This document shows positions 322-59,181 of a stretch of 64,000 nt of DNA, one piece after another. Every line of letters begins with the position of its first letter. Position 1 is the first letter of the stretch. The DNA comes from Protoeuglena noctilucae. Its lineage: Eukaryota. Below the pieces are notes generated by a model, which was not told the origin of the DNA, searched no databases, and worked only from the letters and a program-made list of their open reading frames with translations. A program made the position numbers and the translations under genes. The stretch spans positions 310,001 to 374,000 of the forward strand of contig OY253683.1 of assembly GCA_958009085.1 (NCBI GenBank), in the 5' to 3' direction.

Positions 322-677
322 GATTGCCCAGATCTACGCCATCCGCCAGGCCATCTGCAAGGCCATCGTGTCCTTCTACCAGAAGTACGTGGACGAGTCG
401 TCCAAGAACGAGATCAAGGCGAGCTCCCGCGCCAGGGGCCTCCTCGCGCCGCGCCCTGGGCACGCACACGCCGGGGCGATGGAGCACCTGCATGGCGCTG
501 TGGACGTCGCAGTGGCAGGTGGTGGCGCCGCGACGCAGCCCATTCGCTTCCCATCATCTGCAGGAGGTGCTGCTGAACTACGACCGCTCCCTCCTGGTGG
601 CGGACCCCCGCCGGTGCGAGCCCAAGAAGTTCGGCGGCCGGGGCGCCCGCGCCCGGTTCCAGAAGTCCTACCGCTAA
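322..677 (+). CDS. RPS16: 40S ribosomal protein S16 (uS9), last two exons (322-418, 564-677); 5' part lies upstream of these exons, probably outside the window
   Basis: [32 protein letters not shown] joins [37 protein letters not shown], the eukaryotic uS9 C-terminus. The intron at 419-563 is GC-AG. Confidence 0.96.
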
Positions 678-1010
678 ACGAGGTGAGAGGAAGTGGCAGG
701 CTCTGTGCATTTTGAGCCGCTATTGTGTCGCAGCAGCCCCAGGGGACGAGCTTGACCTGGGCTCGCGCATCGCTCGCAGGACTGTGGGGCGGGGGGCGCT
801 CAACGGTAGCCAGCCACCAGGGTCGGAGCCGAGCATCGCCCTCTCGTTCGGCGCCGCCGCGCTGCCTGCCTGGCCTGGCTGCGGTCCCTTTGCCCGCCCA
901 CCCGCATAGCCTCTCGCTCCTGGTGCATGTTCGTTGGCCAGGCGACACCGCATGGGGTGAAGACGGGCGGGCCGCCCGCTTTTGAAGCCGTGGACTACTT
1001 CACACGCTCG

Positions 1011-1882
1011 CTAGATTCGCATGTCCGACATGTATGCCTCGGTGACGCCGCGGTGGATGGCAGATTCGAGCGCCTGCGGATCCACGCCCCGGCTCAGCGT
1101 GGGCTTGGGGAGCTCCCGCCGCCTCTCGACCCCGCCGCCCACCCCGGCCTTCACGGCGGCCTGCTCGATCAAAAGGCCTTTCATTCGCTCCTTCAGCGCC
1201 CTCTTCCTGCACGATAGTAAGGTGGGGAGCTCAATCTCGGCCAGCCCCAAGTCACCGACACCACCCGGAGACCGGAAAGGCCTGGCAGAACGCCCCGCGC
1301 ATGTCAGCGCCCGATACTCACCGTGCCTTGGAGCCCAGGCCCTTGGACGTCGTGCGGCTCTGGGAACGCAGCTCCCTCATCTTCGATCTTATGGCGCGGC
1401 TCATCCTTACTCCCAGCCTGCGAATCCAAGAGAGGCAGCTCGGTCACGCCGGCAGGGTCGCGGCTGCCCACCGCCCTGCACGCTTGGCCCCGCCCCTTGC
1501 GCCCGCACTTGTGCTTGGCGCGCCCAGTGACGGGCGGCTGTTCTCGGGACGTGGACGGAGGGGACTCGTCGTTCGGCGTCGTCGGAACCCTGCTTGTCAC
1601 ATCCACGCGCTCCAGGTCGTCCGTTGCCATGGCCTCGTCGCCCGACTCGTCCGAATCGTCCTCGCGCACGGCGCGACCGCCCATGCCTGGGAACGGCAGA
1701 GCGGAGTTGTCATTGACGCACGCAACGGCATCGATTCTTGTGCCCCAGCCAACCCGGCCCCCGTCGATTTCACCTGTCAACTCAGCCGCCGCCGCCTCCT
1801 GATCATCCCCCGCATCTTCTCGCCGCGCCTTTCTGCTGCGAGCGCGCTTGACCTTCTTGCGCTTCGCGTAACCAGCTTTCAT
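1011..1882 (-). CDS. Hypothetical protein with basic N-terminus and acidic middle, probably two exons
   Basis: ORF 1304-1909 (ATG at 1882, MKAGYAKRKKVKRARSRK...) and ORF 1011-1250 both look coding. A GTGAGT donor lies at 1321, but I could not resolve an in-frame junction. Confidence 0.4.
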
Positions 1883-4911: not shown

Positions 4912-7900
4912 TCACGGCATGTCGTGGCTCTTGGCCCTGGCGAGCTTGGCGATGTCGATGAAGACGTCTTCGAGCGACGCGTGCCGCATGGCCCAATCCA
5001 CGACCCCGCTGCCGCATGCCACGGCCGCCTCCATCGCCTGCAGCGGTGCCGAGCGCAGTTCGTCGTATGCCCGCCCCGGTCCCGGCGCAGGGCCGGCCAT
5101 TGTTCCGCACTGCGCGTCTCACCGCGAACACGGCCGCCAGGGAGACGCCCTCCGCGGGTATGCGGTACCGCCGGGTGCATGCAACCTCTTGCACCAAGGT
5201 GGCGTGGGGACTGATGGACGCCACGAGGGCGTCCGCCGCGCGCTGCACCTCCTCGCGCCCCTCGGCATCTTCACGTCCCTCCGTCACCACGGTCAGGATC
5301 ACGTAACCCCCGTACCTGGCTGAGATCTCTCGGGGGTGGCTGAGGGTGAAGAGTTCCCCGTCGATGAAGATGCCCAGCCGATCGCAGAGCACCTCCGCCT
5401 CCTGCGAAGCCAGGTGGGGGTTGTGAGTCATGGACACGCGCATGCCAAAGCGACGGCGTGGTGTACAGCCGGAGAGCCCCAGGCGCCAAGCTGTGTCATG
5501 CCCCGCACCAGCCCACCAGGGGGAGTCACCAAGGTGCGCATTGACCCACGTCCCTCTGTGCGTGCTCGCCTGCATTGAGTGCGTCGTGATGATGACCGCC
5601 TTGTCCTTCTTGGCCTGCTTCACCACGTCCCACAAGTTGCGCCGCGAGGCAGGGTCCAGCCCCGTGGACGGCTCGTCCATGAACACCACCCTGGGAAGAA
5701 CACAAGAAGGAGATGGCGCGGCTGCGTTGGAGCTAACAGGGACCCAGTAAAAGGCCCACGCAAGCCAGGCACTGCTGCGCCCTCAACCTCCCACCTGGGG
5801 CTACCAATGATCGACATGGCCACCGACAGCCTGCGCCGCATGCCGCCGGAGTACGTCCCCACGAGCCGGTCCGCGGCCGCGGAGAGGTTCACGGCACGCA
5901 GCGCGTCGTCCACGTCGCTTATCAGCCGCGAGGGCGGAAGGTTCTTGAGGCGCCCGTAGAACTCCAGATGCTCGCGGCCGGTGAGGCGGGCCCAGACGGT
6001 GTCGTGCTGGGGGCAGACGCCCACAAGCGTGTAGATGGTGTCCAGGTCCTGCATGATGTCCAGGCCCTCGATGTACGCCGTCCCAGCCGTGGGCTCCAGG
6101 AACCCCACGAGCATGTTGAGGGCCGTCGTCTTGCCTGCGAATGGGCCACAAGATGGGCAGGTTTGAATGAATGATGCGCGGATGCTGTGGGTAAAGCCCT
6201 CAACATGCTCAACATGGTAGGACTGGTGGGTGCCATCACTCCTCAACGGCCGCCATCGAGGGTTGGCTCAGCAAGGGGCCGCAGTCGAAGTCCCTCCCCG
6301 GCGACAATAACGCCTCACCCGCCCCGTTGGGCCCGACAAGGCCGACCACTTCGCCCCGGCGGACGGCCAGGGACAGGTGCCTCACAGCCACCTTCTCCGG
6401 ATGGCCCCCCACCGCCGGGAAGACCTTCTGCAGGCCCTCGGCGATGACAGGGTGCGTGCCGCGCGCCGCAGGTGCGATGTCGTCCACGGCTCTCTCCTCC
6501 CGGGCCACCTCCTCTGATTTGTAGACATTCTCGCTGAGGGGCGCAGGCGTGCGGTCCCGCTTGTACCCCCGGGACCGTCCCAGGTGCCCCAGGAAGAAGA
6601 GCCAGTGGCGCCGCACCCCGACCGAGCTGTCCAGCACCTGCATAGGAGGATGTGAAGAGGAGCAGCATCGCACCTGAAGGGACAGAGTTGCAGGGCATTG
6701 TACCTGCCGGTCCCCACAGCAGCGCGCACGTGGCGTGCTCTCCGCTAGCTGCATGCGTGCCATGTGTGTCTGCCCTCGCCTGCTCGAGGTACCACGCGAG
6801 CGCGGTGAGGACGACGAACTCCGCCACGAAGACGCCCAGCACGCGCGGCACGCCCATGTTGGGGTCGTGCATGTCGCCCCATCCCAGCCCGCTCTGGCCC
6901 CGGTACTGCCCGCGGAAGGCGAAGGCGGACATCTCGTACAGGACGCGGTAAACGCCGAAGCTGGGGATGAGCTCGAGTACGGGCACGAACGACCGGCGGC
7001 CGTCGATGAAGGTCTGCATGATGTTGCCGGCGACGACGCCGCAGAGCAGGACCCAAAGGTAGGCGGCGGAGAGCCCGGTGCGGCTGGACTGGAAGAGGCT
7101 GGACATCAGGAAGCCCTGGCCCACCATGGCGTGGACGGCGGTCAGGTAGAACAGGATCTGGAGGGAGTAGCTCGTCTTGCGGAAGAAGTTGAGGCCAATC
7201 GCAGATCCGAACGCCATCATTGCCAGGCAGTACACGAACCACACCAGCGCCCACCACAGGTACATGACGATCCTGCAGGGGATTGACAACGCAAGGTGTT
7301 GGTCTGGATAGCGACGCGGGGCAGTGCATGCATGAGAGCCGACGCTGTCTGTCAATAGCCCCTCATGCTTGGTGGCCGGTGCAGTGACTCGCCAGTAGGT
7401 GTTGCTGCTGAGCCCGTGCATCTTCATCATGACCCGCAAGCGCTGCTCCTTCTCATACACGAGGGCCTGGACCATCACTGCGGCAGAGGAGAGGCAACGT
7501 GGTCAGCGTCACCAACCGTTAACGCCCATTCCCGTTCTCAGTCACAACGGGTCGGTGGGGCCCTGGCTTGCCTGGCAGGGGCAGGCCGATGACCCAGACG
7601 AAGAAGGACGGGCCGAGGAGGGACGAGAAGTCCAAAAGGAGTCTGCTCTCGCGTTTGGGCATCTCCGACTCGTAGGTCTGTGCACAGGCCCGGGGCGGGT
7701 TGAAGCTTATGAGAGGCACTGGCGTCAACACGTATGCCAGCCATGGTATCTGCTGCCATGGTATTGCTTCCATGGTATCTGCTGCTCCTCGCCTGGGTGA
7801 CAGAGTACTGGGCACCGAGGTAGTCCGCCAGCCACGCGTTGACGGCCATGTTGATGGGCTTGGTCCACCGTTGGAACCTCTCCAGCCCCGATCCTGTATG

Positions 7901-9715
7901 CATGAACCGGCAAGGCTAGTGTCAGTCGCAGCCTTGACACAGGGCAGTGGTGCACAGAGCACTGGTGCCCCCTACCGGCAGGTCATACTGGCAGGTCAAG
8001 TCACGACCCCAGTACTTCCCTTACGTGCTGTGATGTCACTGCCCTGGCACTCGCCTGACGTGCTGTTGCGGACGTTGTCGAGCCAGAACCGCACGCGGAG
8101 CTTGCCGGGGCCCGAGTCTCGCCAGTCGACGGCGGCGGGGTACCGATACGAGAACAGCCGAGGGCTGCCGCACCCGGTGGCGCCCTTGAAGGCGCAGAAG
8201 AGCTCGCCCTGGATGTCTGCGATGCGCGGGCAAGAGGGCGTTTTCAGAAGTGGCATTTTGCATGCCACCAATGCCGGGGCGTGACGTGCGTGTGCTCACC
8301 ATGCGCCGTCGCCCGTGGCTGCAGGTCCGCTTCCGCGCAGGTGAGGAACTTGAGGCCCTCGAAGGAGAACCACACCAGGTCGAGCCTGCTGGTGTCTATC
8401 TTGGTCCCCAGGATGGTCATGTTCTGAAGGAAATGGGTACGAATGTCAACCGATAACCAAGGCAGGGTGTGGCGCATCACAATGGCCAAGGGTCAGCCGT
8501 TGATGAGCTTCGCGAAGCACAAGCGCACTCAAGCACGTGCGGCTCACCAGCGCAGGGATGCCTCCGTTCAGGGCCCCCCATGCCAGCACGTCGGTGCAGT
8601 TCTTTGTGAGGATGGTCAACGGCGCCATGGACCCCAGCCCGGCCCACGCGAGGTCCACCTCAATCGTCGGCGCGCCCGGGAACTGCAGCCAGGAATCACT
8701 GCATCCTCAGCTGCACGCTCACCCTGCTCGTCTTTCCAGCGCCCCGTGGCTACGAACGGGCAGCTATGTGCGAGCTCGATGCATCAGCGCAGCTCACCCG
8801 GACTGGGGTGGAGAGCAGCCCAGCGACGTCGATATTGTCGGCCATGGCGCCGGCCGCCCCGCGGGCGAACGTGTAGGCGGTGAAGGCGGTCGACAGCGAG
8901 TCCTGCAGGCCCCCACGCAGCATCGTGGAGCTGAGGGCGGCCCCCGACGGCGGGCCACCGGTCCCAGGGAAGGGCGGCAGCATGGCGTCTGTGTAGGCCG
9001 ATGCCTGGGTCAGGTTGGCGCCCGTGTGCAGCATGGGTACTTTGGGGCCATACGCGGGGTCCCTGTAATTGAGCTGCAGGAGCATGGGGGGTTGAGGTGG
9101 GTGCACGCACAGAGATGCTAGTACTATGCCAAGTGGGAGGCGCTCTTACCCATGGAATGAAATACAGAGGCGGCCAGCGTGCCGGATCTGGGACGGCGCA
9201 GAAGGACGCCTGGATGCCGGTGGAGTACTCGACGCCAGTAACCGAGGGGTCGAACTGCTTGCTGCGTGGGCAGAAGAGCGGCACGAGAGATGACGGGACG
9301 GCTGGGCTGTGAGCCGCGGGGCATCTTGCTCCTGGTGCCTCACCAGTACGTCTGAGTTAGGTCGCAGGGCTTGGCGGGCGTGGCTGCGTAGCAGCCCTCG
9401 GTCAGCGCCGCGTTGGTGCAGCACTCGTTGCATTTGTGGCCGCACTTGAGGTTCCTGTTGTTCAGCAGAAGGCGATTCACCACCACCTGGATGATCAGCA
9501 TGATGAGGCAGAAGAGGATGGGCATGGAGATGAGCCTGCGGCGGCGTTAGCTTGGTAGTTCAACAGGAAGCGGACAACAAGGCCCGTTCTCTGCTCACCC
9601 GTGGCCCCCAGCCTAACCTGATGTTCTGTCGCACGTCTCGTCGCTGCAGGCGCATTTGGTTGCGGAAGAGCGCCACGGCCTGGCCGCGAAAAGACGCACG
9701 AAGGCGCGTCGGCAT
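4912..9715 (-). CDS. ABC transporter subfamily A (single TMD-NBD, plant ABCA/ATH-like), many exons; start may lie slightly upstream
   Basis: Walker A GPNGAGKTT (split by an intron), GVCPQHD, signature YSGGMRRRLSVA, Walker B VFMDEPSTGLDP, H-loop TTHSMQEAEVLCDR, LVYEKEQRLRVMMKMHGL, C-terminal SLEDVF. Confidence 0.93.
7741..7785. repeat. Three near-tandem 14-15 nt units (CCATGGTATCTGCTG) inside an ABCA intron
   Basis: ccatggtatctgctg / ccatggtattgctt / ccatggtatctgctg read directly from the sequence. Confidence 0.8.
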
Positions 9716-10176
9716 TGCCGGGCCCCCCTGCGGCGCTCCCGCATCGCCCGTGCTCGACGACGCCTGCGACGCCTGCGCAAACGAGACGTGCTTCCTTTTC
9801 AGGTCGGTGCGTCGAGAACAAACCTCAAACCTCACCTTTAATGATATTCATCGTCGTGCGTCTCTTGCTACCCCGAGCTCACCGACGCCATCTCAGCCGC
9901 ACCAGTGGCGCTACCAGGCGCTATTGGTGTGCCCATGGCAACTCAAGCGCCTTCCGCTTACAGGCGGCGACGGCGCAGCTCGTCACTGCATGGTTCAACA
10001 AGATACATGGGGAATATGTGGCGTTACCGAGCTCGCGGCCGCTAGACACTCGGCATTCCTAGTCCGTCGTCAAGATTGCGAAAAGATGGCGTTCACCGAA
10101 CGCACAGATGCGGAGGCCCACAGTGCTGGCAGCGACTCTGCCAGCGCGGGCCAGTCTCAGCGAGCGTGGGCCAGCC

Positions 10177-11295: not shown

Positions 11296-11553
11296 TTCCC
11301 GGTCACCACAACGAGATCACCACCAGCGGTCCCAGGGTCGCTCGAGGCGCGTCTGCCTGTCGTTTTCCTGCCCGACCTGCTCGCTGCTTGACGTTTCCTA
11401 CCCATCGGCGCCCGCGAGATCCCGAATCGCTCGACGTGGACGGGCCAAGTTTCAATGCCAGAAACTTCACGGGGCGCCAGGCGTCCTTCGCGCCCGTGGG
11501 TTCCGACAGTCCCAGACCTCCGCCCCCGTCATCGCACCGAGATACGTGGAAAG

Positions 11554-13387
11554 ATGATCGCTGCTCGCGCGTCGGTGCAGGCCCCCGTGGCCTCCAAGCA
11601 GGCCTCGCGCCGTGCTGTGGTGCGTCCCGGCGTCGCGCGGGCGGGGCCGACCGGCCGAGGCTGCGCGTTTCGATCGCAGCGCCTCGGTTTGATGCCTACT
11701 CGCTCGCCGCAGCGCCCCGCCGAGGCCCCAGCGCGCGATGCTATCCGTTTCGCTCGAGCAGCGGGATCCGACCCCGGGCCCCGGCCGGTCCGGTCCCCCG
11801 CGCTCGGTTCCGGCCGGGAGGGGGCCGGATTCGCTTTATTTTACTCGGCGCGGGCGTCCCGCGCCCTGCTCGGCCCGGGCCAGGCCCCCCGAGCGAGGAC
11901 CGACTCCCCGCCCGCTCCCTGCGCGCAGGCCGCGGCCGCCTTCAAGCCGGAGCAGGCCGCCGCCGCTTTCCTCGCGTCTGCCGTCGTTGCGTGGTCCGCG
12001 CAGGCCTCCCTCACGTACGACCAGATCCAGGGCCTGACGTACCTCCAGGTGCGCTGCCCTGGCCGCCGATGCGCGCTCCTCCGGCTGCGGTCGGATCAAT
12101 TCGTGACCATCGGTGCCCGATGCGGCGCGGCGGGGGCGCCTGCGCCCCGTGGGGGAAGCGCGCTGCGCAGGATTCAGGCCGTTGTGATCTTCGGCCCCCT
12201 CGCCATCCGCGCCGCGCTGGGTCCCCCCCGCCGATCCCACCGCGGAACCTATCGCAATTCGCGCCTCCTCTTGGGCGCGCGACATCTCGCGCGCCGGGGA
12301 CGAGCTCCGACGGCCCCCCCCTGCAGGTCAAGGGCTCGGGCCTGGCCAACACCTGCCCCATCATCGAGGCCGGCACGACCGACATCTCGAAGATCCCCGC
12401 GGGCAACTACACCTTCGACAAGTTCTGCCTTGAGCCCACTTCGTTCAAGGCGAGGGCGCATGCGCGCAGCCGCCCAGGGTGGCTCGCGGCGGGGGCGGCC
12501 CGTGGGTCGGGACACTCCTCGATGCTGCGGGCTCGGGGAGAGCGAGCGCCCTGCGAGCGCGCGGCCGCTGCTGCTGCCCGCCAGCCGACAGACCCAGAGC
12601 GCGGATGTCGCTGCCCGCTATGCAGGTCAAGGAGGAGTCCCAGTTTAAGGGCAAGGGCTCGGAGTTCGTCGACACCAAGCTGATGACCCGCCTGACGTAC
12701 ACGCTGGAGCAGATGTCCGGCAAGATGTCGATCAGCGGCAACCAGGTCAAGTTCGTGGAGGAGGACGGCATCGACTACGCCCCCGTGACGGTCCAGCTGG
12801 CCGGTGGCGAGCGCGTGCCCTTCCTGTTCACGGTCAAGGTGCGCCCGGGTCCAGCCCGGCCGCGCGCCCGCGCGCGGACGGCTCCACGGCTGGCGTGACG
12901 CGCCCCGCTCCTCGCCCGCGCCTTCAGGAGCTGAACGCCTCGGGCTCGCTCGACAACTTCGGCGGCGAGTTCAAGGTGCCCTCGTACCGTGGCTCGTCCT
13001 TCCTGGACCCCAAGGGCCGCGGCGCCTCGACGGGCTACGACACGGCGGTGGCTCTGCCCGCCGCTGGCGACGCGGAGGAGCTGGCTAAGGAGAACAACAA
13101 GAGCGCGGCTGGCAGCAAGGGCACCATGGTGCTCTCGACGGCCAAGTACGACCCCACCATGGGGGAGATCGCGGGCGTGTTCGAGTCCGTGCAGCCCTCC
13201 GACACGGACCTGGGTGCCAAGGTGCGGGCGGGGGCCGGGACGCGCGGCGCGGTGCATGGCTCGCGACGCACGGCGTTTTGCCCGTCGTGCGCGCCCGCGA
13301 AGGGTCGCGAGGCTCCTCCCTGGCACGCAGGCGCCCAAGGATGTGAAGATCACGGGCCTGTGGTACGCTCGCCTGACCAAGGCGTGA
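11554..13387 (+). CDS. PSBO: Photosystem II oxygen-evolving enhancer protein 1 precursor, multi-exon
   Basis: [113 protein letters not shown]; bipartite transit peptide. Confidence 0.98.
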
Positions 13388-18558: not shown

Positions 18559-18602
18559 GGTAGTCCTAGAGCATAGCTAGATTAGTGGCCGGCCATGGCG
18601 CA

Positions 18603-18660
18603 ATAGCAGTCCTTCGTTTAATTTCAACAGTCCATAGCAGTCTTTCGTTCAACCTTCAGC
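18603..18660. repeat. Short intergenic direct repeat ATAGCAGTCYTTCGTT, 31-nt period
   Basis: atagcagtccttcgtttaatttcaac (18603) and atagcagtctttcgttcaaccttcagc (18634). Confidence 0.7.
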
Positions 18661-18794
18661 GGAATAGATCACGAGCGGGACGATTGAGCCGTGGGTTCGC
18701 GGGGCTCAATGCCCCGAAGGTGGCTGCAGGCGGGTGCCTGCAGTGGCGCAGCGCTTGATGCAGTCGCATCGCGAGTCCCCGCGGGCAGTCCTGA

Positions 18795-20324: not shown

Positions 20325-23300
20325 CTACCCAGCCGTGGGCGTCCGGCTATGCCGCCCCCGCCGCGGCGACTGCCCCGGCCCAGGCGACCCGTGGCCCAGC
20401 ATGCCGTCCTCCGCATCCACGGGCGGGGTGCGCCGCCAGTGCCCGTGCCCGGCCGCTGCGTCCAGGTCTTTGCGCGTCACGATGCCAACCACGTGGTTCT
20501 GCGCGTCCACCACGCACAGGTGGCGCAGGCCCAGCAGCACGAACGCCTGCGACGGGTGGGCAGGGCGAGGGCGCGTTGGATGGCGTGGGACACAGGCAGA
20601 GGCGGGCGCGGCAGCCTAGATGCGTGCCCAGGGCCAAAGCAGGCATGAGGCGCAGCCAGGAGCGTGCAATGCAGCGTGGCGGTCACCTGGTGGACGCGGA
20701 AGGCGCTGGTCTCTTTGCGGACCGAGAGCGGGGCGCGGTTCATGAAGGGCCGCAGATCCACGTACAGCTCACGCAGTGCTTCGTGCAGCGCGTGGCCCAG
20801 GCTGCTCGACCGGGACAGCGGCACCGAACCCAACCCTGACACGCTCGCACCCGCGCCCTCTCCTTCCCCAGCGCCGTCCCCAGCGGGGGAGTCGTCGTTC
20901 GCCCCAAAGCCAGACATGTCGGCGTGCCTGGGGGCCGCCTCGACCGTACTTGCAGCCCCCGACCACGCCTTCCCTCGCAGCGCCGAGCTCGCGTGCGCGT
21001 GACGAGACCCGGCTCCACCCGCGCCACCCACGCCACCGTCGCCACCCCCGTCGCTGGCGGCTGGCGCGCATGCCTTGAATGTCACCCCCGATGCATCGTC
21101 TGCCCCCTCCGATGTCCCAGACTCTCTCGACTCCTCGGATCCCTCCTTGCGGACGCTCCTCTTAGCCAGCGTGGATGTTAACGTCGATGTCCCTGGCTGC
21201 CCCGCCTCGTGGCCCCCAGGAGTCGCCACCCCGGACATGGTGGTGGGCTGGGGCGTGACCCAGCCGCTCTCGGGGTCCTCCTCGCGGATCGAGTCCATCC
21301 AGTCGACTAACGTCTGTTGAGACGCTGCGAGTGCAAGCTGAGAGATTGTGTGAGGTATGGGAGGGCTTGCGCTGGAAGGGCATTTGTGATGGAAGGGAAT
21401 GTGATGGGAGCAGTCACGCAGCGCTCGGCACCAAGCCCAGGGCATCCATGACCACGCAGCTCAGCTTGCCTGTCATCCAGTCGACGAGGATCGTGTCCAC
21501 TGCCTGGGAGGCCGAGATGAGGTGCCGGCGGTGCTTGAACTTGCGTCGGTAGAACTGCCCCATCTCACGGTCCAGGCGAGCGATGTCCATCGGCGACACC
21601 GACTGCCCATCCACCCTGCAGGTCCAAGGTCAGAGGCGAGGCAGGTGAGAGTTGTCGCAGGTGGGAGTGGCTGATCGGGGAGTTGCTGAGGGATACGGGA
21701 GCTGAGATGCGGTAAGAGAAGCATGAAGTGGGACAACAAGTGTCAAAAGCGCCCACCACCCCGGTACCCGCGCCACCCGCCCCTTCACCAAACCAAACCT
21801 CACCTGCAGAAGGCCTTCTTCTCCAGCAACACAAGGAGCTGGGACCGCAGGATCATGCCCTCGAGGTGCGTGGCGGTGCCCTGGCTGTCGCGCTCAAACA
21901 CGGGGAAGCCGTTGTGGCTGGTGGACCTCAGTGCCCGTATGACGCGCTCGACGGACTCGATGCATCGGAAACCGCGCACGGGCGAGGCCATGACGTCTTC
22001 TGCGGACATGGCCCGCAGCGCACGGGGCGGCTCATGGCGAAGGAAAAACACCGCTCGGTTGCGCTCTATCTCCGACTCGTAGACGCCGTCTGCGTTGAGG
22101 AGGTGGCCGACGAAGCTGGAGACGACCACGGCGATGATGATGCCGATCAAAAAGTCGATGCTGTGGGTGCCCTCGACCACGATGACGACCAGGGAGATGG
22201 ACGAGCGGAAGACGCCACTGGGTGGGGAGAGGGCAGGAGGAGAGGGTTGGGGCGACGATGGGGTGTGAGAGCATGGTGACAGGCGAGGGCAGGAGGAGAG
22301 GGTTGGGGCGAGAGTGAGCGTGACAGGGTGGTGGCAGTCAGGCAAGGCGTGAGGAATGGGTCAGGGCGATGCTGGGGCACAGGCGCTATGGATGGGGCCT
22401 GCGATGAGGGAACATGAGCGCAGCAATGGACCCCGCCAGGCCTTACAGCATCGCCTCACCCGAGCATGGCAATGGATCCCACCAGTACAGCATCGCCTCA
22501 CCCGAGCATAGCAGTGGATCCCACCAGTCCATACAGCCCCGGCTGGATGTCTGTGATGCCGGAGAGGTGGTCTTGCAAAAACATGCCCACGAGTGTCCCG
22601 CCCGCGCCCCCGATCAAGATGGACGGCATGAAGAGGCCGGCAGGGACTGCGGGACCGAGAGCGGGGTGAGTGAGGGCGAGTGCGTGTGAGTGAGGGCGAT
22701 TGCGGGTGCGGGTGGGCGAGTTAGAGCGAGTGAGGGCGAGTGATGAGGGCGATCATCGACTCGCCTGCAGTGCCGGCCGCCAGGGACATCATGAGGAGGT
22801 AGCTGGCCGTGACGAGGGCCAGTGCCCGCTTGCTGAAGAGGCAGCTGGCGGGCGTGCACCGCTCCTTCTTGGGAAGCCCGTCCCCGAGGCTGCGAAGAGA
22901 GAAGAGGCTGGGTGAGCATGAAGTGGTCCACGATAATGTGATACGGTAAGCACACCAATGTAACTTAAGAAGAACGAGACAAGTATCACATTCTAGGACA
23001 GTTGGACAACCAGATGCCTCGGCATCCTTCACCTGTAGAGCTGCCGCACCGTCTCCTCGGGCACCGAGAAGAGGGCCGTGGCGAGGTCGTTTAAGTGACC
23101 CTCCGGGCACCCGAACTGCAGGCCGTAGTCCTTGACCCATGCCTGCTTGCGGGGCACGCAGGTGCCGAAGCGGTAGGACAGGAGGAAGAACACGAGGCAC
23201 GTGACCAGGCCCACCGCCAGGACCTCCAGGATGCGGCGGAGGTGGCTGTGGAGAGGGGCGCGCGTGTGGCTCAGCACGTTCCTGCGGGGGCGCGAGGGAG

Positions 23301-39502: not shown

Positions 39503-41519
39503 CTAGAGCGGGTCAAGGGTCGGGTGCACGCGCGAGCGGGTGGTGGCGGTGTTCAGCCCGGTCGTCGACGGCATGAAAGGGATGCCTTTCGTGAAGGCGC
39601 CGTCCAGCCCGTGCCACTCCAGAGGCATCTCGGCCTGCCGCGGGCGCAGGCGGCCGTACGACGCACTCGTGGTGGTGTAGCAGGGGTGCTGGCCCACCGC
39701 GGGGACATTCCACGCATGGACGTCCGCGAACCGCGCGGGGACAGCCATCGAGCCGAACTGCGTGCCCATAAGAGATCCAGCCGGTGGATGAAATCAGCAG
39801 GGCAGTCACTCGGCAAGCTTCGCGTGACAAGCAAGTGGCCAATAGAGCAGCTAGTGCAAGGCTCGGTACCTCGTCCGCCTCCCCAAACGTCTTTGCGGCC
39901 TCCGCCAAGACTTCCTCGGCGTCCAGAACGGCGGAATCCAGCACGGCCGCCACGGCTCCCAGGGTTCCCGAGAACGCAAGCTCCCCCAGGGTGGTCGCCT
40001 GCGAGGGCAGCGGCAGCGGCCCATGCTCAGCCGCAGTCGAGGCGCCGCAGAGCAGGCCGACAGGTCCCCCCTCTTCTCAAGCCTGCATAACAATGCATGA
40101 TCCTGACAGCTCTTGCCTCCGCCGCTCTGTGCAGCATCTTGTGCCGGGGGCCCCTCCCGACTGCATCGACCGCCGTGGTGCCCGGCTGGGACAGAGGCAT
40201 GTGCCGCCGCTCCTTGGCCTGTGCCTTGAGCAGCTCGAGGAACACGTGCACGTAGTGGCTGGCGAAGAGGCAATCCTCCGCAGACCTCTGCAGGACGGGG
40301 GCGGAGGGGCGCGCTGTGAGCGGCGGCACCGAGGGCACCGACGGCCCGGTGGCTGCGCGTGGTCGTGTAAAGCGCACGCACCAGTGGGAGGCACGTGTCG
40401 ACCGTGAGCGCCCGGACCGGCCCCTGACGCAGCAGCTCTGCGTAAAGGTCGGCGAGCTGGGCCCCGTCCTCTGCCGCAGCGACCGTCGCCGCCACGCCCA
40501 GGTTCTCCGCCCTCAGGAAGGCCACGGGTGCCGCGCACATCGCCTCTCCATCACTGCGGAGGTTGATAATTGGTGGAGAATGACTGCCGCAGCTTTGAAA
40601 CGGCCGGGTGGCACCCCACAGGAGTCACCACAGCTGTGAGGGTGCCCTCACCAGAACGGGTCGCTGAAGCCGCTCACGCCCACCACCCCCCGAGCCCGCC
40701 GATCGCTGCCCTCCAGCTCCAGCCTCGTCAGACCCACGGAGGGCTCCCCGTCCTTCGTGAGCCTCGCTGCAACCACCGGTGCCATGCTCAGCACCGCACT
40801 CTCGATGAACTGCTGCATGTCGAATTGCGGCGCGGTCAGGGACGTCAGGTCGATGACCAGGACGTGACCCGATGGACGCACTGCCTCGACGAACGCCGCG
40901 ACGTCTGCGTGTGTTATTCGAGCGGGCTTTGGACTGATGCCGGAATAGCAGCAGGTGCAAGCCGGTCCGGCAAGCCTGCTGCTCACCGTGGACCGGCGCG
41001 TAACCCTGCTGGCTCGAGCGGCCATTCGACAGGACGTTGGCCACCGAGAGCCCCAGGGGACTGCCATGCTCCGCCACCCACTTGGTCATGTCGTTCATGG
41101 CATCATCGTTCGTGACGATGTAGGTCGAGCGGTCGAGTGGAAGCAGCCGCGCGCACTTGCGTAGCTGGAACAGCGGATAGGAGAGCGCTGGGGACAAAAA
41201 CAGCGTTTTGTTGTGCGGACGGGGCTACGGACGATGCATTTTCCGCTGCGGGTCTCCAAAGCAGCTCGCATGCATGTCATGGCCCTGGGCGGCGACTCGC
41301 CGCAGCTGTCCCGCGTGTCGTGGCGCGATTATGACCACCTTAAAAACGCGCTAGACTGGGAGGGTGCTTCGCACCTGGAAGCTTCCCTATCGGGGCGAAG
41401 GCGACGCTGTGGGGTGTTGCCACACGCCCCAGCGTCGCAGACAGCGTCCGGGCCGGGATCTGCTCCATCCACTCCGCCGAGCAGCTAGCTAAGATGACGC
41501 AGGACACCTTCACCACCAT
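39503..41519 (-). CDS. Nucleotidyltransferase-like domain fused to a C-terminal PIERCE (C9orf116/FAP182-like) ciliary domain
   Basis: The N-terminus MVVKVSCVILAS...APIGK...TYIVTND...NVLSNG resembles NTP_transferase folds. The C-terminus HPCYTTTSASYGRLRP..EMPLEWHG..GAFT...GLNTATTRSRVH resembles PIERCE1/2. The two parts are joined by a phase-0 GT-AG intron at 39758-39869. Confidence 0.65.
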
Positions 41520-41819: not shown

Positions 41820-44035
<2,216 letters not shown>

Positions 44036-52400: not shown

Positions 52401-52478
52401 CAGCCCAGCGGCGCGGATTTGACCGCAGCACCCTGGTGCGCATTCAAGGCGCGAGGCACGCAAACCGCAGCTGAGAGC

Positions 52479-55400
52479 TCAGGTCCGACTCCGCTTCCCA
52501 GGCCGGTCCCGGTCCCCAGGGCTGCGGCGATCGAGACCCCGCGAATCGCTCCGCTCCCTCTCCCTATCCCTCTCCCTGTCCCTACTCCTCTCCCTCTCCC
52601 TCTCCTTGTCCCTCTCTCTCTCCCTACTCCTCTCCCTGTCCCGTCTCGAGTCGCCACGATGATCGCGCTCCTCCCGCCTCGTGTCACCCCTCGAGTCCCC
52701 ACTCCGACGGTGTCGCTCACGCTCTCGATCCCGCTCGCGTTCCCCATCTCGCTCACGCTCTCGGTGCCTCTCTCGCTCCCGCTCGCAATCCCTGTCTCGC
52801 TCACGCTCACGCTCGCGATCCCTGTCCCTCCCCGCTCTGTCCCTCTCCCTCTCCCCACTGGTGCGCCTTTCCCTCTCCCTCTCCCTCTCTCTTGCGCCCC
52901 CCGCCCGGTCATCCCTATCCTCCCGATCCCTGGTCGGGGCCGACACCGACGCCGAGCCTTCCTTCACGCTCGCCGCCCCCTGCCCCGCGGTCTCGCCACG
53001 AACGCTTGCCCTCGAGGCCTCTGCGCCACCGTCACGCGGGCTCTGTGCATCCCCCGTACCCGTGACCTGCCTGTCCCACCGACGAAGCCGCCCCCGCCCA
53101 CCGTCGACGGGCTGTGGCGTCGCCTCTGCAGCGCGCGCGGCGCCGTCAGGTACCGCGGGCGCGGCAGGGGTCGCGGGCACCACAACTGGGGCTGAGGTTG
53201 CCGATACAGGCAACCCCGCTGAGGCCGGGGCTGTGGCGGGCGCCGGGGGGGCCTCGGGCGCAGTCGGCTTAGGTTCCTCGCTCCCCGCGGCTGCAGTCCC
53301 CGCACCGTTCCCCTCTTCCTCGTCTGACGAGAGCCCGAGGCGGTACACGCCACCTCCTAGCTGCGGCTGACTGGGCTTGACTGGCAGCACCTGGGAAGGC
53401 CTCAGCTTGACCAGCGCCCCGCCCACGCGCACCGTGTACACGAAGGCGCTGGGAGGGGTCCCCTGGCCGCCCCACGCGCCCGGGCTCCTGCGGGCGTGGC
53501 GATGGCTGCGAGCGTGCGCTCTGCCAGAAACTGCCAGAACACGCTGGCTCGTCCCGACCCCAGGCACCGGACCCGTCCGTGCGGCCGGCTCACCTGTCGA
53601 CGTCCACGACAACGCCAGGCCGCTTCTCATCCCCCGCTTCCTCTACCACCCATACCTTCTGCCCCCGGGCAATCGGCTGCGGATCGTACTTACGGCCCCG
53701 GGTGTCCCCCGGAGAGCTCTGGGGCGCGTGCCGAAGCTCGTGCATCAAGTCCCGGTCCACGGAGCCGGGGTCGGGCGGGGCTTCGCCGCCCGAAAGGAGT
53801 CGCAGGAGGCTCCCGACCTCGCCCTGTGGGGGAACCAGTCACAAGCACCCGGGTCAGCGCCTGCATCAGCACACGCACCCGCATCGGCGCCCCTGCACCT
53901 CCCACGCCGCGCCGCGTCGCCCGGCAGCGGCTCTCCAGGCGCCAGCACCGTCACTAAGCCTCACGAGCGAGCCGGCGCCAGCGTGGTCGTCCGGAGGTGG
54001 GGTCATCACGCGGACGTCCTCTCCGCCGAAATGGATGCGGCGGCCCGACTTGACCGGGAACGCCGCGTTCGAAGAACCCTCCCCGAGGTCGTCGTCGCTC
54101 TCGGCCTTGTCTCCTGACTCAGCGCCGCCTTCCTCCTCGTCAGAACCGTACGTCACCAGGCCGCCCAGCCCGCGGCCAACCCCCGTCGGCCGAAGCGCGG
54201 CCGGCGTGGACGCAACCGCAGCCGCCGGAGTGGCCGGCGGCTGCTGCTGCGCGGGGCCTTGTGGAGCGGTGGCCGACTTGAGCACCGGCTTGGGCGCCGC
54301 GCCGCCCTTGTGAGGCGCCGCCTCGTGGTGGGCCTCGCGAGCTGCCTCGAGGATCAAAGCGTCCGTGACGGCCAGCAAGATGTCCGTGACGACCGTCTGC
54401 GAGGCAGAGGACAGGCGACGAGGCAGGTCACAGGACAGGCGATGGGAAAGGCAGAGCACCCTTTCAGTCCACCCAAACCACATCGACGTCGCCAGTCCTG
54501 CGCATAGGCCATCGCCACCGATGTCAACCCCACTCCCACGACTCCCCCACCGCAGCGCTCGCCTTGGTCACGTCAGCCACCACCGCGCGCCGCTCGGCGT
54601 CCGTGAGCGCCGCCCCGTCCCCCTCGCCCTCGTCGTCGCTCCACAAGTGGCCCCGCTTGCCCCGCCCCTCCCCCGCCGCGCTCGACTTCCCCTCCTCGGC
54701 CGCCTGCTTACGCCTCTCGATCTCTTCCCGCAGCCACCCCGGCACCCGTGCCAGCTTGTCCTCCGCAGGCGGGGGGGCGGGCGGAGGCACGGCGCCGGGC
54801 GGAGCGGCCACGGCCCAGGCGTCCGCGGGAGGCGCCGGCGCCCAGCCCTCCGGGACCGGAGGAGGCGCCGGCGGGGGCACCGGCGGGGGCTGCTGCGGCC
54901 ATTGCTGCGCCTGGTGCGTGGGATACCAAGACCCGTAGGCGGCGTACTGTCCGTGCGCGTACGCGGCACTTGGATCCGACGGGGCGTACTCCGGCGCGGG
55001 CGCGCCTGCGTAGCTGCCGGGATAGGCCGTCTGGGCAGGCGGGTACTGCGTGTGCGCAGGGTACGCAGGCGCGGCCGTCGTGTACTGCGCGGGCTGTGCG
55101 GCGTTGGCCTCCGGGGGATACCCCTGCCACGTCTGCTGCTGCTGCGGCGGTTTCGGCTCGGAGGGCATCTGCAGAGGAGACGGGGCTGGTACACGTGGAT
55201 CGCCACCGCCGGGACGCAGCCAAAAGCAGCGCGCTTCCACCCGATGGCTCACCCACGGCGGCCGGTAGGCTTGTTGCACAGGTTGTTGCTGCTGCGCGTA
55301 ATAGTCGTACGACGGGGCAGCTGCTTGAGCGTATGGGTGCTGGGCCTGCGCCGTCGCTCCTGCGGGAAAGCAGGGATGGAGCACCCGTCGATTGCAGTGA

Positions 55401-55657
55401 CAAACCAGCTGCACGGTGATGGCAGAACTGGAACCTGTCGCCCTCTGGCCCCCGTTTGGGGAAGGCATCGCAGAGCTCGCTCGTTGGCATCCCGAGCGTC
55501 CCGAGCAGAGGCGCCAGCCGCGATTCTCACCCCGAGTCCAGTCCCCTGGATACGCTTGATACGCATAGTTGCCGTAGCTCGCGTCATACGGCCCGGGCTG
55601 CGGCGCAGACGCCTGGCCCGGGACCGGGGGCGGGGCCCCCGGGGTCTGGCCGTTCAT
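52479..55657 (-). CDS. PNISR/SFRS18-like Arg/Ser-rich splicing-associated protein
   Basis: Pro/Gln/Tyr-rich N-terminus; VPGWLREEIER, TKTVVTDILLAVTD..I.EAAREA and GLGGLVTYGSDEEE match the remembered PNISR pattern; long RE/RD/RS C-terminal tail. Confidence 0.75.
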
Positions 55658-56501
55658 CCTTGGCACGGCATGCCCAGTCCCACGGGTGACGAAGACCCCA
55701 CGCACCGAGAGGGGGCAGTGGGGGCTACCAGGCGCGAGGGGAATCGCAAGGATGATCCGGGCCCCCTAAACCACTAAAACTCCTGCGCAGACCGGGTAAT
55801 GTGAACTGAAAGTGTGCGCGGGAGCCGTGGATTCCGAGCGATCGCAACCCTGGGGTCGGCGTCGGGCACACAAAACGTCAGATCGCACGCAAACTCTAAA
55901 TGTGTCACCTCTTTAGCAAAACACTTGCTTCAATTTTGCTGCGAACGCGCGGGCGGGCGACGTGGACGACCGGCTGCGCGGGAGGGGCGGCGTTCTGGGC
56001 GAGAGGCGGAGTAACTCATCCGGTGCGTGGCGCGCCTTGTCATATGTGCGCGACGATGACGCTGGCGTGGCCAAACAATTGCCGAGGGAGCCTGCCGTCA
56101 GCATTTAGACCGTCAGCATTTGGAAGCATGCATGCCTGGATTTTTGGCGGCGAGGAGCTCCCGAACGGTTCCCCGCCACCCACTCGCTACCAGCTCCTGT
56201 CGTTTGTAGCCTACGATGCACCGGGGACCACCAGGAGCCTAGCGTCGACGCTGGAAGGACTGCCTCGACGGTCTCCAAGGCTCTGGCCGGGAAGGGGAGC
56301 TCGAGGGCGGCGCCATGCGGTCGGCGTCGCGCCTCGGGGAGGGACCGGGAATCCTCGACCGCCGCACGAGTCAGAGCGCAACCACCCCTCGCCAAATGAC
56401 CACACTTGCGCCTCTCCGGAACCCATCTGCGCTTGTCCCCGAGAACGAGCCCTACGAAACGGACAGGTTAGATTAGCAAGGAGAAGCATTCTGCAGGGAC
56501 T

Positions 56502-59181
56502 TTGACTCGATGCATCGTCCTGCGCGAGGCTGTCTGGCCCCTCCGCACCCGACGCAGGCGTGACACGGAGGGCTCGCCATCGTCTGCGAACAACAAGGAA
56601 GCCAGGAGGGCCACGCTGACACTCTTCTCACGCATCACACAGATCCTCCAGCCGAGAGGTGTCCTGCAGAGCCGCCGAATCACATTCGCTCCCTTTGCTA
56701 TGCGTCGCTGCTCTGCAGACCGGGAGCTCCCCTACCCTCGTCACTGCACTGCAGTGTTCACGGACCGGAAGTTGCCAGAGACGACGTGGCCCGGCGATGA
56801 TGGCCAGGTCCAACCAGATCCAGACCCAGACGCGAGCACGATGCGGCGCGTTGAGGGGATCTCGGACTTGGGGCTGCTCACGACCGGCCAGGACGACGCG
56901 CGCGGGAGCGAAACTGCGCGGCGGACGTCCAATCGCGACGCCCGCGACTGGACGGACTGGATGCAGATGCTTGCCGAGGGACTGTGGCTGCCTTCCTACT
57001 CCGCCATCGTCCTGGGCACCTTCCTCGTCGCCTTCATCGGATACCGTGAGAAGGGTTGGCGCCTTGGCTGGTGCTAGTGTGACACCCTGGCTGAACAGCC
57101 TTGCTCTTGCCCTACTGTTGCTCTCCTGACACGTTCGGTCGTCAACCTCCCGCAGTCGGCATGTCCCGTGGCCTGCAAGTCTGCGTCGATTCCCCCGACA
57201 GCTCCCGTGGACCCTGCATCCTCTCCCTCACGAGCGCCTCCGGTCTCGTGGCCACGCTGGCCACCACCGTGGCGTGCCTCCTGATCCCCCGCACGTCGCG
57301 CATGGCCCTCCGGGTGTCCAACGCGGCCGTGGCCGTCGCGTGGTGGTGCATCCTGGGTTTCCTGCTCGGAGGATACTGGGCGCTCTGGACCAGCATGGGC
57401 CCCACGAGCCCAGACGGGACGCCGGCGCTCCAGCACCTGCGCATGCTTCCCGGCAAGCCCTCCAGGCACATCGAGAGGGCGTTCGCGATGGCGGTGAGCG
57501 TGCACGTGACCGTCCTCATCACGTCGCCGCCCCGGCGACCCCACTGGGAACCCTCGTGGCCGCGACAACGGCCCAGCTGGCCCAGTCCCTCGTCGCTATC
57601 GGCTCGGACCTGCACTACGTGGCGGGCCAGCCCGGACAGGGCTCGCGCGCCCTCTACGCCGGCCTCGTCGTCGTGGTCGTGGCGCTCTACGCCCTCCTCG
57701 CGCCTTTCCTGACCATCATCGTCCGCCCGCGGTGGCTCAACGGGTCTGGCGTCGAGCCCTCCTGCGCCGTCCTGGTCGCGAGAGTCTTCTCCGCCACAGC
57801 GCGTTTCGTGCTCCGCACCCCACAAGTCTCCGCCGTGGCCGTGTCCAAGTGGCTCGCCAACTCCATCCTTGCCGCGTCCGTCCTCGCCCTCGTCGCGGCC
57901 TCCCTGGCCGGCTTCCCCGTGCCGCCCGGCGCCGCACTCGCCGCCCTCCTCGCCTGGGTCCTCATGGTGCGCGTCACGGGCAGGCTGCAGGTGGGCATGG
58001 CCGCCACGGCGCTGGACGAGGCGCTGACGCGCGACGTGGCCAACACAGTGATGGGCCGCGCCCTCCGCCCCGATGCCGCCAACCCTCGGAGCGTGGCGTC
58101 GCCCCTCGGCAACTCGCTGCCGCAACAGCCAGAAGGCGCCAGCCCCCTCCACTCGGCCCACCCCGCCGTCCACCCGGCGCCCGCCAGCACTGTCGGCAGT
58201 GCCGCGCTGGGCTCGTGGCACGCGGCCGTCGGAGAGAGTGAGTCGCTTTTGACAACTGTCTGGGGCAAATCAAGAGGCACTCTATTTGAGCATCACTTGC
58301 TCCTGAACAGAACCGCAACAGAGTGTTTCCGCGTCCCGTCCCCGCAGCCTGGCAGCAGGCGGTGGCGTCGTACGTCCCGCCGTTGCCCTACCTGCGCGAG
58401 TGCAAGGCCGTGACGGTGGTCTTCACCGACATCGTTGGCTACACGCACCTGTCCTCGACCCTGCGGCCCTCGGTCGTGCTGCAGATGCTCCACCAGTACT
58501 TTAGCAAGCTCGACGCGCTGATGGACATCACGGGCACCTACAAGTACCAGGCGAGCGCTGCGGACGCGCCTACCTGCCCTGCATGGCACTGACCCACGCG
58601 CTGCTGTCTCGTAGATGGCCCTTGACTGGCAGTGGGTCCTGTGGACGCCGCAGACCGTGGGCGACGCGTACGTGGTCATCGCGGGCTTCCCGGATGAGGA
58701 CAAGGGCCACGCAATGCGCGCGCTCCGCACGGCCTTCGCGATGATCAAGGTGGCCGAGTCGGTGACGGTCCCAGCCGAGGAGATGCCCGTACAGGCACTG
58801 CGGGTCATGGGCCGCACGATGAAGCGACGGGCGCTGGATATCAACGAGAAGGGCGCCGCAGCGCACATTCGGGGCGCGTTGGAGGCCACGGAGACGGAGG
58901 CGTGCCTGCAGATCCGCGTGGGCATCCACACGGGTCCCCTCGCGGCCTCCACGCTGGGCTTCAAGCGGTCGTGCCTGACGCTGGTGGGCGACACGCTCAA
59001 CACGGCCAGCCGGATGGAGAGCTCCTCGCGGCCGGGGCACGTGCGGATGAGCGCGGCGACCTACAGCCACCTCCCCGCAGACGTCCAGCGCGTCTTCGCG
59101 GCCGAGACGCTCGACGTCAAGGGCAAGGGACCCATGCAGACGTACATCGCCTCGCATGCCGATCTTCAAGCCACCACATGA
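56502..59181 (+). CDS. Multi-pass membrane class III nucleotide (adenylyl/guanylyl-type) cyclase; start unresolved
   Basis: VTVVFTDIVGYT, YKYQTVGDAYVVIAG, IRVGIHTGP, LVGDTLNTASRMES, VKGKGPMQTY; several hydrophobic helices at about 56980-57980. Confidence 0.9.

What the first reader, a model, noticed from the sequence alone, without database searches (positions are those of the whole stretch)
419..58653. Frequent GC-AG introns with a tight AG|GCGAG donor consensus
Seen: the reading frames can only be restored with GC donors at RPS16 419-563, ABCA 5402-5569, 6638-6779 and 7678-7792, PsbO 12450-12625, CLC 22647-22764 and 24751-24881, Deg 41957-42039 and 43232-43316, PNISR-like 54397-54562 and cyclase 58551-58653. 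Two more are probable, at 8054 and 45107. Every case has exonic AG before the donor, and 10 of the 11 read GCGAG. Known: GC-AG introns are usually about 1% of introns. Inference: with very roughly a hundred introns in the window, the rate is several-fold to tenfold higher. It includes typically highly expressed genes (PsbO, RPS16), which suggests lineage-specific relaxation of 5' splice-site recognition, possibly driven by GC pressure or variant U1/U6 snRNAs.
Basis: partly seen in the sequence, partly recalled or inferred. Interest (0 to 1): 0.75.

Follow-up and report, generated by a model that had tools for sequence, protein, structure and literature searches.

The report
GC-start introns common in green alga
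In this small marine green alga about one intron in six begins with GC instead of the near-universal GT, more than I found reported for any green plant or alga, although some unrelated marine algae are already known to do the same.

Summary
Real and genome-wide. All 11 stated introns end GC..AG. Eight are backed by spliced RNA contigs, transcript-sized protein records or gap-free homology; two (CLC) have no in-frame GT alternative; one (PNISR) is unresolved. A gene finder giving GC, GA and GG donors equal priors called 252 GC of 1,615 introns in 863 kb (15.6%; decoys 12 and 17), and 0 of 74 in other green algae. The alga is probably a pedinophyte. U1, U5 and U6 recognition sequences are canonical, so the variant-snRNA idea fails; no introner family was found. 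GC is used almost only where the rest of the donor matches U1: 46% of AG|GYRAG donors, 2-5% elsewhere. A relative shares one GC donor and switched another. Best reading: GT-to-GC substitutions tolerated by compensation under GC pressure. Frequent GC donors are known (Emiliania ~60%, pelagophytes 14-17%; the scan noted another alga), but the highest value in a 121-genome green-plant table is 8.5%. Extra lead: the GT donor AG|GTGAGT is under-represented, so C is the majority base there.

The parts
419..563 (+). GC-AG intron, RPS16 (uS9), AAG|GCGAGC
   Evidence: flanking exons match chain 22tu_SQ residues 78-109 and 110-146 with no gap
5402..5569 (-). GC-AG intron, ABCA transporter, CAG|GCGAGC
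   Evidence: RNA joint in X1 and X2; only GC..AG placement fits
6638..6779 (-). GC-AG intron, ABCA, CAG|GCGAGG
   Evidence: RNA joint in X1 and X2
7273..7392 (-).
   Evidence: RNA piece ends at 7271; no in-frame GT alternative; part of the 1,448-nt length match
7478..7571 (-).
   Evidence: no in-frame GT alternative; part of the 1,448-nt length match
7678..7792 (-). GC-AG intron, ABCA, CAG|GCGAGG
   Evidence: part of the 1,448-nt length match
7894..8054 (-).
   Evidence: part of the 1,448-nt length match
12450..12625 (+). GC-AG intron, PsbO, AAG|GCGAGG
   Evidence: RNA joint in X1, X2, X5; spliced model identical to P0002; GC also at this position in relative L117
13926..14098 (+). doubtful predicted GC-AG intron after a 2-codon first exon, CAG|GCGAGG
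   Evidence: GC-specific model only; may be false
21325..21469 (-). uncertain predicted GC-AG intron, CLC, CAG|GCAAGC
   Evidence: GC-specific model; the neutral model chose a GT intron 21314-21431 instead
22647..22764 (-). GC-AG intron, CLC channel, CAG|GCGAGT
   Evidence: both models; no in-frame GT alternative; downstream exon matches CLC; no RNA joint displayed
24751..24881 (-). GC-AG intron, CLC, CAG|GCGAGG
   Evidence: both models; no in-frame GT alternative; no RNA joint displayed
36667..36763 (-). predicted GC-AG intron, CBS-domain gene, CAG|GCGCGC
   Evidence: both models; in-frame GT words nearby; unverified
39999..40116 (-). predicted GC-AG intron, GAG|GCAAGA
   Evidence: both models; unverified
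41957..42039 (+). GC-AG intron, Deg protease, CAG|GCGAGG
   Evidence: spliced model identical to P0158, 512 of 512 residues
43232..43316 (+). GC-AG intron, Deg protease, AAG|GCGCGT
   Evidence: P0158 identity; five homologues shown align across the junction without a gap
   Evidence: both models; outside the stretch laid with RNA; unverified
54397..54562 (-). candidate GC-AG intron, PNISR-like gene, AAG|GCGAGC
   Evidence: unresolved against in-frame GCG|GTGGGG at 54550
58551..58653 (+). GC-AG intron, adenylate/guanylate cyclase, CAG|GCGAGC
   Evidence: Pfam PF00211 positions continue 55|56; no in-frame GT alternative

Best explanation
These are ordinary major-spliceosome (U2-type) introns whose donor has C at +2. 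Shown: they are spliced exactly; they make up about 15-16% of introns on the chromosomes sampled; they match GT introns in length, base content and acceptor; U1, U5 and U6 recognition sequences are unchanged; C at +2 occurs almost only when -2A, -1G, +3R, +4A and +5G are all present. Inferred: the unchanged U1 5' end binds AG|GCRAG with one C.A wobble, and the flanking pairs keep the duplex inside the range of working GT donors (median -6.7 against -8.3 kcal/mol). In that full context +2 is close to free, so GT-to-GC point substitutions driven by GC-biased mutation or gene conversion build up towards the local neutral C share (46% seen; 53-74% in context-matched intron and intergenic DNA). In weaker contexts they are removed by selection. 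Donors switch class at old intron positions rather than arriving as new introns.
For: RNA, protein and homology support for 11 window GC introns and for a PRP8 GC intron outside the window, human residues 1505|1506. Neutral gene finder: GT 1,334, GC 252, GG 17, GA 12; GC 223-270 over priors 0.3-15%; held-out loci 18 of 92 and 9 of 65; control algae 0 of 74. Without any gene finder, AGGCGAGT occurs 2,254 times against 613 for the reversed word. GC share by core matches: 223 of 480 (5 of 5), 39 of 848 (4 of 5), 6 of 276 (3 or fewer). U1 duplex energies. Relative L117 has GC at the same PsbO intron, and GCGAGT where this genome has GTGCGC. Compensation at GC donors is stated in PMC2490688 (passage); the +2C wobble in PMC4383343 (passage).
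Against: GC content alone does not predict the rate in published annotations: Chlorella variabilis (67% GC) 0.68%, Monoraphidium (65% GC) 19 of 67,746, though GT-biased annotation may explain this. AG|GTGAGT is rarer than a 'stronger is never worse' model allows (11 seen, at least 23.6 fitted), so something more may act. The genome-wide share is a prediction from my own gene finder on 3% of the genome (12 of 13 displayed RNA joints recovered), not an RNA count. The direction GT-to-GC is not shown: one relative, one gene. +3A is not compensatory once context is allowed for.
Confidence: 0.72

Rival explanations
1. Upper limit on donor strength (an addition to the best explanation): near-perfect GT donors bind U1 too tightly in this alga, so at the strongest contexts C at +2 is favoured because it loosens the duplex for the U1-to-U6 exchange.
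For: +6T in AG|GTGAG donors 11 of 247 (4.5%) against 12-15% in three context-matched references (p 7e-5 to 1e-3), 18-36% with other exon ends, and 55 of 192 in AG|GCGAG; unchanged under neutral and GT-only models. With two or more extra U1 matches, 52 of 60 donors are GC. Genome-wide AGGTGAGT:AGGTGAGA is 1,029:2,471 = 0.42 against a T:A ratio of 0.63-0.73 after TGAG in intron and intergenic DNA. A four-state toy model fits only with the perfect GT donor penalised (deviance 0.1 against 8.8-13.1).
Against: The C share at AG|GYGAGT (55 of 66) does not differ from the intergenic reference (0.735, p 0.16). My sample holds 19 AGGTGAGT words where the genome count predicts about 34, so the size of the deficit is uncertain. 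The toy model has nearly as many parameters as counts. The pattern was found after looking at several positions. No other alga was tested for it.
Confidence: 0.4
2. A protein of the spliceosome (U1C, LUC7, PRP8 or similar) changed in this lineage and lowered discrimination against C at +2; GC pressure then filled the opening.
For: U1C differs from the human chains at Thr11 (Ser), Tyr12 (Phe) and Arg28 (Leu) and has Val at position 19, positions that PMC4383343 (passage) lists as touching or lying near the U1/5' site duplex. Other GC-rich green algae have far fewer annotated GC donors.
Against: The same passage says alanine changes at these residues had no growth effect in yeast. U1C was not compared with other green algae, so the changes may be common. 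METTL16, SNRNP27K and PRP8 are present; LUC7 was not searched.
Confidence: 0.28
3. A variant U1 or U6 snRNA reads GC donors.
For: None found. The U1 match scored below the Rfam cut-off (65.9 against 69.5 bits).
Against: One U1 by covariance search and one by an internal-motif pattern (1 true of 5 matches), 5' end canonical; U6 ACAGAGA and U5 loop 1 canonical. Only 41 of 427 U1 candidates were scored, so a very divergent copy is not excluded.
Confidence: 0.04
4. The GC introns are introner transposon insertions that bring or co-opt a GC donor, as in pelagophytes.
For: Pelagomonas introners carry GT and GC donors (10.1101/2021.10.25.465678, passage).
Against: 7 of 268 GC and 25 of 1,336 GT introns have any BLAST match to another intron, the strongest from one local duplication; end repeats equal after AG (3.59 against 3.46 nt); same lengths, median 124 against 122. 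The PsbO GC intron position is shared with a relative whose intron no longer aligns.
Confidence: 0.03
5. C-to-U editing of the pre-mRNA restores GU before splicing.
For: None; spliced contigs cannot show the base at +2.
Against: Editing would not need the tight U1-matching context; no other letters were listed for the RNA runs, though contigs drop rare variants and intron cover was not checked.
Confidence: 0.03
6. Artefact: assembly errors or misplaced boundaries.
For: A few window calls are doubtful (13926, 21325, 54397); decoys show about 15 false calls per donor class.
Against: DNA run X8 shows no other letters over 5300-25299 (it may be the assembly's own source); RNA joints, protein records and a relative's gene agree.
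Confidence: 0.01

Closest known systems
Ordinary U2-type GC-AG introns (about 1.2% in 121 plant genomes, PMC6310983; under 1% in mammals, PMC2490688)
   Same: GC..AG ends, closer match to the U1 consensus at the other donor positions, GT/GC switching at orthologous introns.
   Different: About thirteen times as frequent; in the full AG|GYRAG context C is nearly as common as T, and the majority at AG|GYGAGT.
Pelagophytes Aureococcus anophagefferens (~14-17%) and Pelagomonas calceolata (~14%) (10.1101/2024.10.30.620910, passage)
   Same: Same share of GC-AG introns in a GC-rich marine alga; attributed there to genome GC content.
   Different: Stramenopiles, intron-poor (0.2-0.9 introns per gene), with introner elements in Pelagomonas; here an intron-rich green alga (about 6 introns per predicted gene) with no intron families.
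Emiliania huxleyi GC-dominated donors (56-65%; PMC4028052, passages)
   Same: GC-rich marine alga, GC donors verified by RNA, AG acceptors, under-called by GT-trained predictors.
   Different: GC is a minority here; no confirmed GA donors (GA calls at decoy level) against 4% in the Emiliania curated set; intron retention not measurable here.
Green algae with raised annotated non-canonical rates: Ostreococcus tauri 8.5%, Micractinium conductrix 7.0%, Chlorella sorokiniana 5.7%, Micromonas pusilla 5.6% (PMC6310983 supplement MOESM6; GC-AG and AT-AC counted together)
   Same: Green algae well above the plant mean.
   Different: This genome is about twice the highest value; those figures come from deposited annotations, mine from my own predictor, so they are not strictly comparable.
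Eurytemora affinis / Oikopleura dioica GA-AG introns (PMC7072748, passages)
   Same: Changed +2 base with conserved exonic AG upstream.
   Different: GA not GC; a variant U1 was proposed there and none is found here.

Membership tests
U2-type GC-AG introns | removed from mRNA with GC and AG ends | tested here: met
U2-type GC-AG introns | donor complementary to the U1 5' end, more closely than GT donors | tested here: met
   all five core matches in 223 of 268 GC against 257 of 1,336 GT donors
U2-type GC-AG introns | same acceptor type as the GT-AG introns | tested here: met
   YGCAG acceptors, lengths and GC content alike
U2-type GC-AG introns | canonical U1, U5, U6 present | tested here: met
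   U2 and U4 not searched
U2-type GC-AG introns | lariat formation at a U2 branch point | not testable with these tools
   only a loose motif count, 23.5% GC against 20.3% GT
U12-type (minor) introns | RTATCCTT donor (motif recalled) | tested here: not met
   donor matrix is G C R A G
U12-type (minor) introns | U11/U12 snRNAs in the genome | not tested
   not searched
Introner elements | families of sequence-similar introns | tested here: not met
   7 of 268 GC introns with any match; sample is 3% of the genome
Introner elements | target-site duplication or terminal inverted repeats | tested here: inconclusive
   direct end repeats equal to those of GT introns after AG; inverted ends not tested separately
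Introner elements | recent, lineage-specific positions | tested here: inconclusive
   one gene: three PsbO positions shared with relative L117
Emiliania-type GC-dominated splicing | GC donors in the majority | tested here: not met
   15.6-16.4%
Emiliania-type GC-dominated splicing | pervasive intron retention | not testable with these tools
   only contigs were laid
Variant-U1 system (Eurytemora proposal) | a U1 copy changed opposite +2 | tested here: not met
   divergent copies not fully excluded

The most novel reading that the evidence does not exclude
This lineage keeps 5' splice sites inside a window of U1 binding strength with an upper limit: near-perfect GT donors are selected against, so C at +2 is the preferred base at the strongest donors and GC introns serve as a release valve for U1, possibly tied to a changed U1C. 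With thousands of such sites and unchanged snRNAs it would be a natural test of whether over-stable U1 pairing limits splicing outside yeast.
Probability: 0.3. Interest if true: 0.72.

Novelty: new member of a known kind. Interest (0 to 1): 0.52.

Why it matters
It extends GC-donor-rich splicing, known from haptophytes and pelagophytes, to the green lineage at about twice the highest share in a 121-genome table, without introners and without changed snRNAs. Roughly 8,000 GC introns by extrapolation, in 157 of 270 predicted intron-bearing genes, give a large natural data set for how much the other donor positions must pay for a C at +2. Practically, a GT-only gene finder mis-models such genes: it missed or misplaced all 14 window GC introns I checked, so annotations and gene-loss counts for this lineage may be affected.

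Tried and rejected
Variant U1/U6/U5: canonical. Introner families: none. Link to expression (GC3 proxy), position in gene, first or last intron: flat. Clustering in genes: within-gene pairs 344 against 336 expected, p 0.40; adjacent pairs 49 against 37, p 0.018, weak. Differences between chromosomes: 9.6-26.7% over 17 pieces, p 0.055. +3A as compensation: rejected, same odds against context in GT and GC donors. Depletion of AGGCGAG in coding DNA (O/E 0.62; AGGTGAG 0.10) is partly circular and CGGCGAG is also low (0.70), so not used as support. PNISR junction by homology: the only hit, P0277, is a genomic read-through frame; Pfam did not match the upstream exon. CLC upstream exon: no PDB match. 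CLC had low RNA cover and 27 joints were not displayed, so absence of a shown joint says nothing. L114 gave one GC and one GA call in doubtful models, and L096 and L118 one GT call each; these three loci and L117 are not in the 74-intron control. Contigs C24 and C25 are 15.9 and 5.2 kb and were not sampled. A paper recalled as testing extended U1 pairing in mammals was not held. No report of GC-AG enrichment in pedinophytes or chlorophytes appeared in ten full-text searches; subscription journals, bioRxiv supplements and Additional file 8 of PMC6310983 were out of reach.


Full report
Verdict. The window belongs to a 26.3-Mb, about 67% GC green-algal genome, and roughly one intron in six starts with GC. 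The kind of thing is known from other algal groups; I found no report of it at this level in the green lineage.

Organism. Probably class Pedinophyceae. The plastid Ycf1-like protein has three hits, the only named one Pedinomonas tuberculata at 24%. The Deg protease shares 267 identical residues with Pedinophyceae sp. YPF-701 against 220 with [Myrmecia] bisecta and 217 with Micromonas commoda. A MinD-like frame lies between the plastid rRNA repeats (label from recall), where PMC12574857 (passages) places minD in pedinophytes.

Check of the coordinates. All 11 intervals begin GC and end AG, each after exonic AG; 10 read GCGAG. I laid three RNA runs and one DNA run on 5300-25299, a stretch chosen for its many candidates. 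Of 15 displayed joints, 13 are from RNA runs: 3 GC-AG (5402-5569, 6638-6779, 12450-12625) and 10 GT-AG; 27 more were not displayed. No equivalent placement of the three gives GT..AG. The PsbO joint is in two studies. The X1 contig holds 1,448 nt between window 7272 and 9881; a model of 11 introns, four with GC (7273-7392, 7478-7571, 7678-7792, 7894-8054), gives 1,448, a GT-only model 1,567. This is a joint check, not one per intron. The spliced PsbO equals P0002 and the spliced Deg, with both GC introns, equals P0158 at 512 of 512 residues; both records come from contigs shorter than the unspliced genes. RPS16 exons meet at residues 109|110 of chain 22tu_SQ and the cyclase exons at Pfam positions 55|56. 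The two CLC introns have no in-frame GT alternative but no displayed RNA joint. PNISR is open: a GT donor 12 nt on is also in frame.

Genome-wide share. I wrote a gene finder, seeded its donor model with the 10 RNA-shown GT introns, self-trained it on 863 kb (the window and 16 pieces of 50 kb from 16 other contigs) and allowed GC, GA and GG donors with the GT matrix and equal priors; GA and GG are decoys. Result: GT 1,334, GC 252, GG 17, GA 12, that is 15.6% (95% interval 13.9-17.5), 14.7% after subtracting the mean decoy count. Priors from 0.3% to 15% gave 223-270 GC; a GC-specific matrix gave 268 of 1,631. The window has 19 of 127. It recovered 12 of 13 displayed RNA joints. Loci not used in training gave 18 GC of 92 and 9 of 65. 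On six PsbO loci of other algae from metagenomes (52-62% GC, two pairs overlapping) it called 74 GT and no GC. One predicted PRP8 GC intron was checked and joins human residues 1505|1506. Independently of the finder, AGGCGAGT occurs 2,254 times in the genome against 613 for the reversed word; the excess, 1,641, matches the 1,664 extrapolated from the sample.

Anatomy. GC donors have A at -2 in 92%, G at -1 in 99%, A at +4 in 92% and G at +5 in 98%, against 58, 92, 63 and 86% for GT donors. With all five core matches 223 of 480 donors are GC, with four 39 of 848, with three or fewer 6 of 276. Acceptors, lengths (median 124 and 122) and base content are the same in both classes. Against the organism's own U1 end, GC donors have a median duplex energy of -6.7 kcal/mol, GT donors -8.3, and the GC donors would have -11.1 with T at +2 (unmodified-base parameters). 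U1 begins AUACUUACCUG, U6 holds ACAGAGA and U5 loop 1 is GCCUUUUAC; one U1 gene was found by two searches. METTL16, SNRNP27K, PRP8 and U1C genes are present. There is no intron family.

Relative. Metagenome locus L117 encodes a PsbO 90% identical (234 of 259 residues; 38 of 95 four-fold sites differ) with introns that no longer align. It has GC at the same intron (AAG|GCGAGT), and CAG|GCGAGT where this genome has CAG|GTGCGC: the +2 change goes with a better +4 and +6. So the trait is shared and donors switch class in place. This is one gene in one relative.

How it most likely works. Shown: exact splicing, frequency, context rule, canonical snRNAs. Inferred: U1 tolerates a C.A wobble at +2 (PMC4383343, passage) when the flanking pairs are all present; there +2 is nearly neutral and drifts towards the local C share (46% against 53-74% in matched reference DNA). 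Compensation at GC donors is the known rule (PMC2490688, passages); what differs is how little the C costs. Whether GC pressure is enough or a protein changed is open. U1C differs from human at four listed contact positions, but it was not compared with other algae and such changes were harmless in yeast by the same paper.

A lead beyond the finding. AG|GTGAG donors carry T at +6 in 11 of 247 cases, against 12-15% in reference DNA, 18-36% with other exon ends and 55 of 192 in AG|GCGAG. Genome-wide, AGGTGAGT is 0.42 times as common as AGGTGAGA, where 0.63-0.73 is expected. A toy model in which stronger donors are never worse predicts at least 23.6 such sites; penalising them fits. Against this: my sample holds 19 AGGTGAGT words where the genome count predicts about 34, the C share at AG|GYGAGT is not above the intergenic reference (p 0.16), and the pattern was found after the fact. 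I give an upper limit on U1 binding about 0.4 as a contributor.

Comparison with what is known. Plant mean 1.2% GC-AG; in the 121-genome table the highest shares of GC-AG plus AT-AC are Ostreococcus tauri 8.5%, Micractinium 7.0%, Chlorella sorokiniana 5.7% (PMC6310983: passages and supplement MOESM6 whole, rows of MOESM5 and MOESM14). PMC7072748, PMC3488318, 10.1101/2021.10.25.465678 and 10.1101/2021.10.04.463119 were seen as passages; the last has no word 'splice' and one 'intron', about chloroplasts. Ten full-text searches showed no report for pedinophytes; unseen supplements and subscription journals may hold one.

Score. New member of a known kind; interest 0.52. The most novel reading, selection against over-strong GT donors that makes C the preferred base at the best sites, has probability about 0.3 and would deserve about 0.72.

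Noticed in passing
window 6638-8054 (-): Five consecutive GC-AG introns in the ABCA gene, 6 of its 16; the highest count in the sample. Within-gene clustering is not significant genome-wide.
   Followed up: yes
L138 3407-3591 and 9097-9305; L136 1872-2029; L129 1906-2066: The PRP8, U1C and METTL16 genes themselves carry predicted GC-AG introns; one PRP8 intron checked by homology.
   Followed up: partly
L136 1501-1870: U1C zinc finger has Ser11, Phe12, Leu18, Val19, Leu28; human has Thr11, Tyr12, Ser19, Arg28. Not compared with other green algae.
   Followed up: partly
L134 1504-2244: PRP8 differs from both displayed chains (8xi2_A, 6zym_A) at otherwise shared positions, e.g. Thr for Ser (human 1524), Leu for Ile (1566), Met for Phe (1577). 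Meaning unknown.
   Followed up: no
genome sample: G is favoured over A at +3 about four-fold beyond context in both GT and GC donors, although A pairs better with U1.
   Followed up: partly
window 9882-10516 (-): One RNA contig (X1 record 1, 6,622 nt) runs without a break from the rhodanese-like gene region into the ABCA gene on the same strand: read-through, overlapping ends or an assembly join.
   Followed up: no
L096 1654-2403: A relative's PsbO (87%) has no introns over residues 39-289 on a 3.3-kb contig with long flanks, unlike this genome and L117: intron loss, a retrocopy or a fused transcript contig.
   Followed up: no
G000:C27:34420-49954 (L091, L092, L094): The two plastid 16S genes point away from the short stretch between them that holds the Ycf1-, CcsA- and MinD-like frames (labels partly recalled).
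   Followed up: no
genome sample, introns numbered 1147-1160 and 1570/1573: A set of 100% identical intron pairs in mirrored order points to a recent local gene duplication or a doubled stretch of assembly.
   Followed up: no
window 22647-22764 (-): The CLC GC intron is largely a GTGA/GCGA simple repeat on the + strand.
   Followed up: no
window 54304-54480; P0277: A public protein record reads from intron DNA into the PNISR exon, an example of a gene call that ignores the introns.
   Followed up: yes
window 2222-3998, 30268-31926, 32484-34011, 61506-62934, 63331-64000: Other genes seen, labels recalled and untested: Nudix/Dcp2-like, pyruvate dehydrogenase kinase, tocopherol-type methyltransferase, CbbY-like HAD hydrolase, Clp ATPase end. 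All their predicted introns are GT-AG in the GC-specific model.
   Followed up: no
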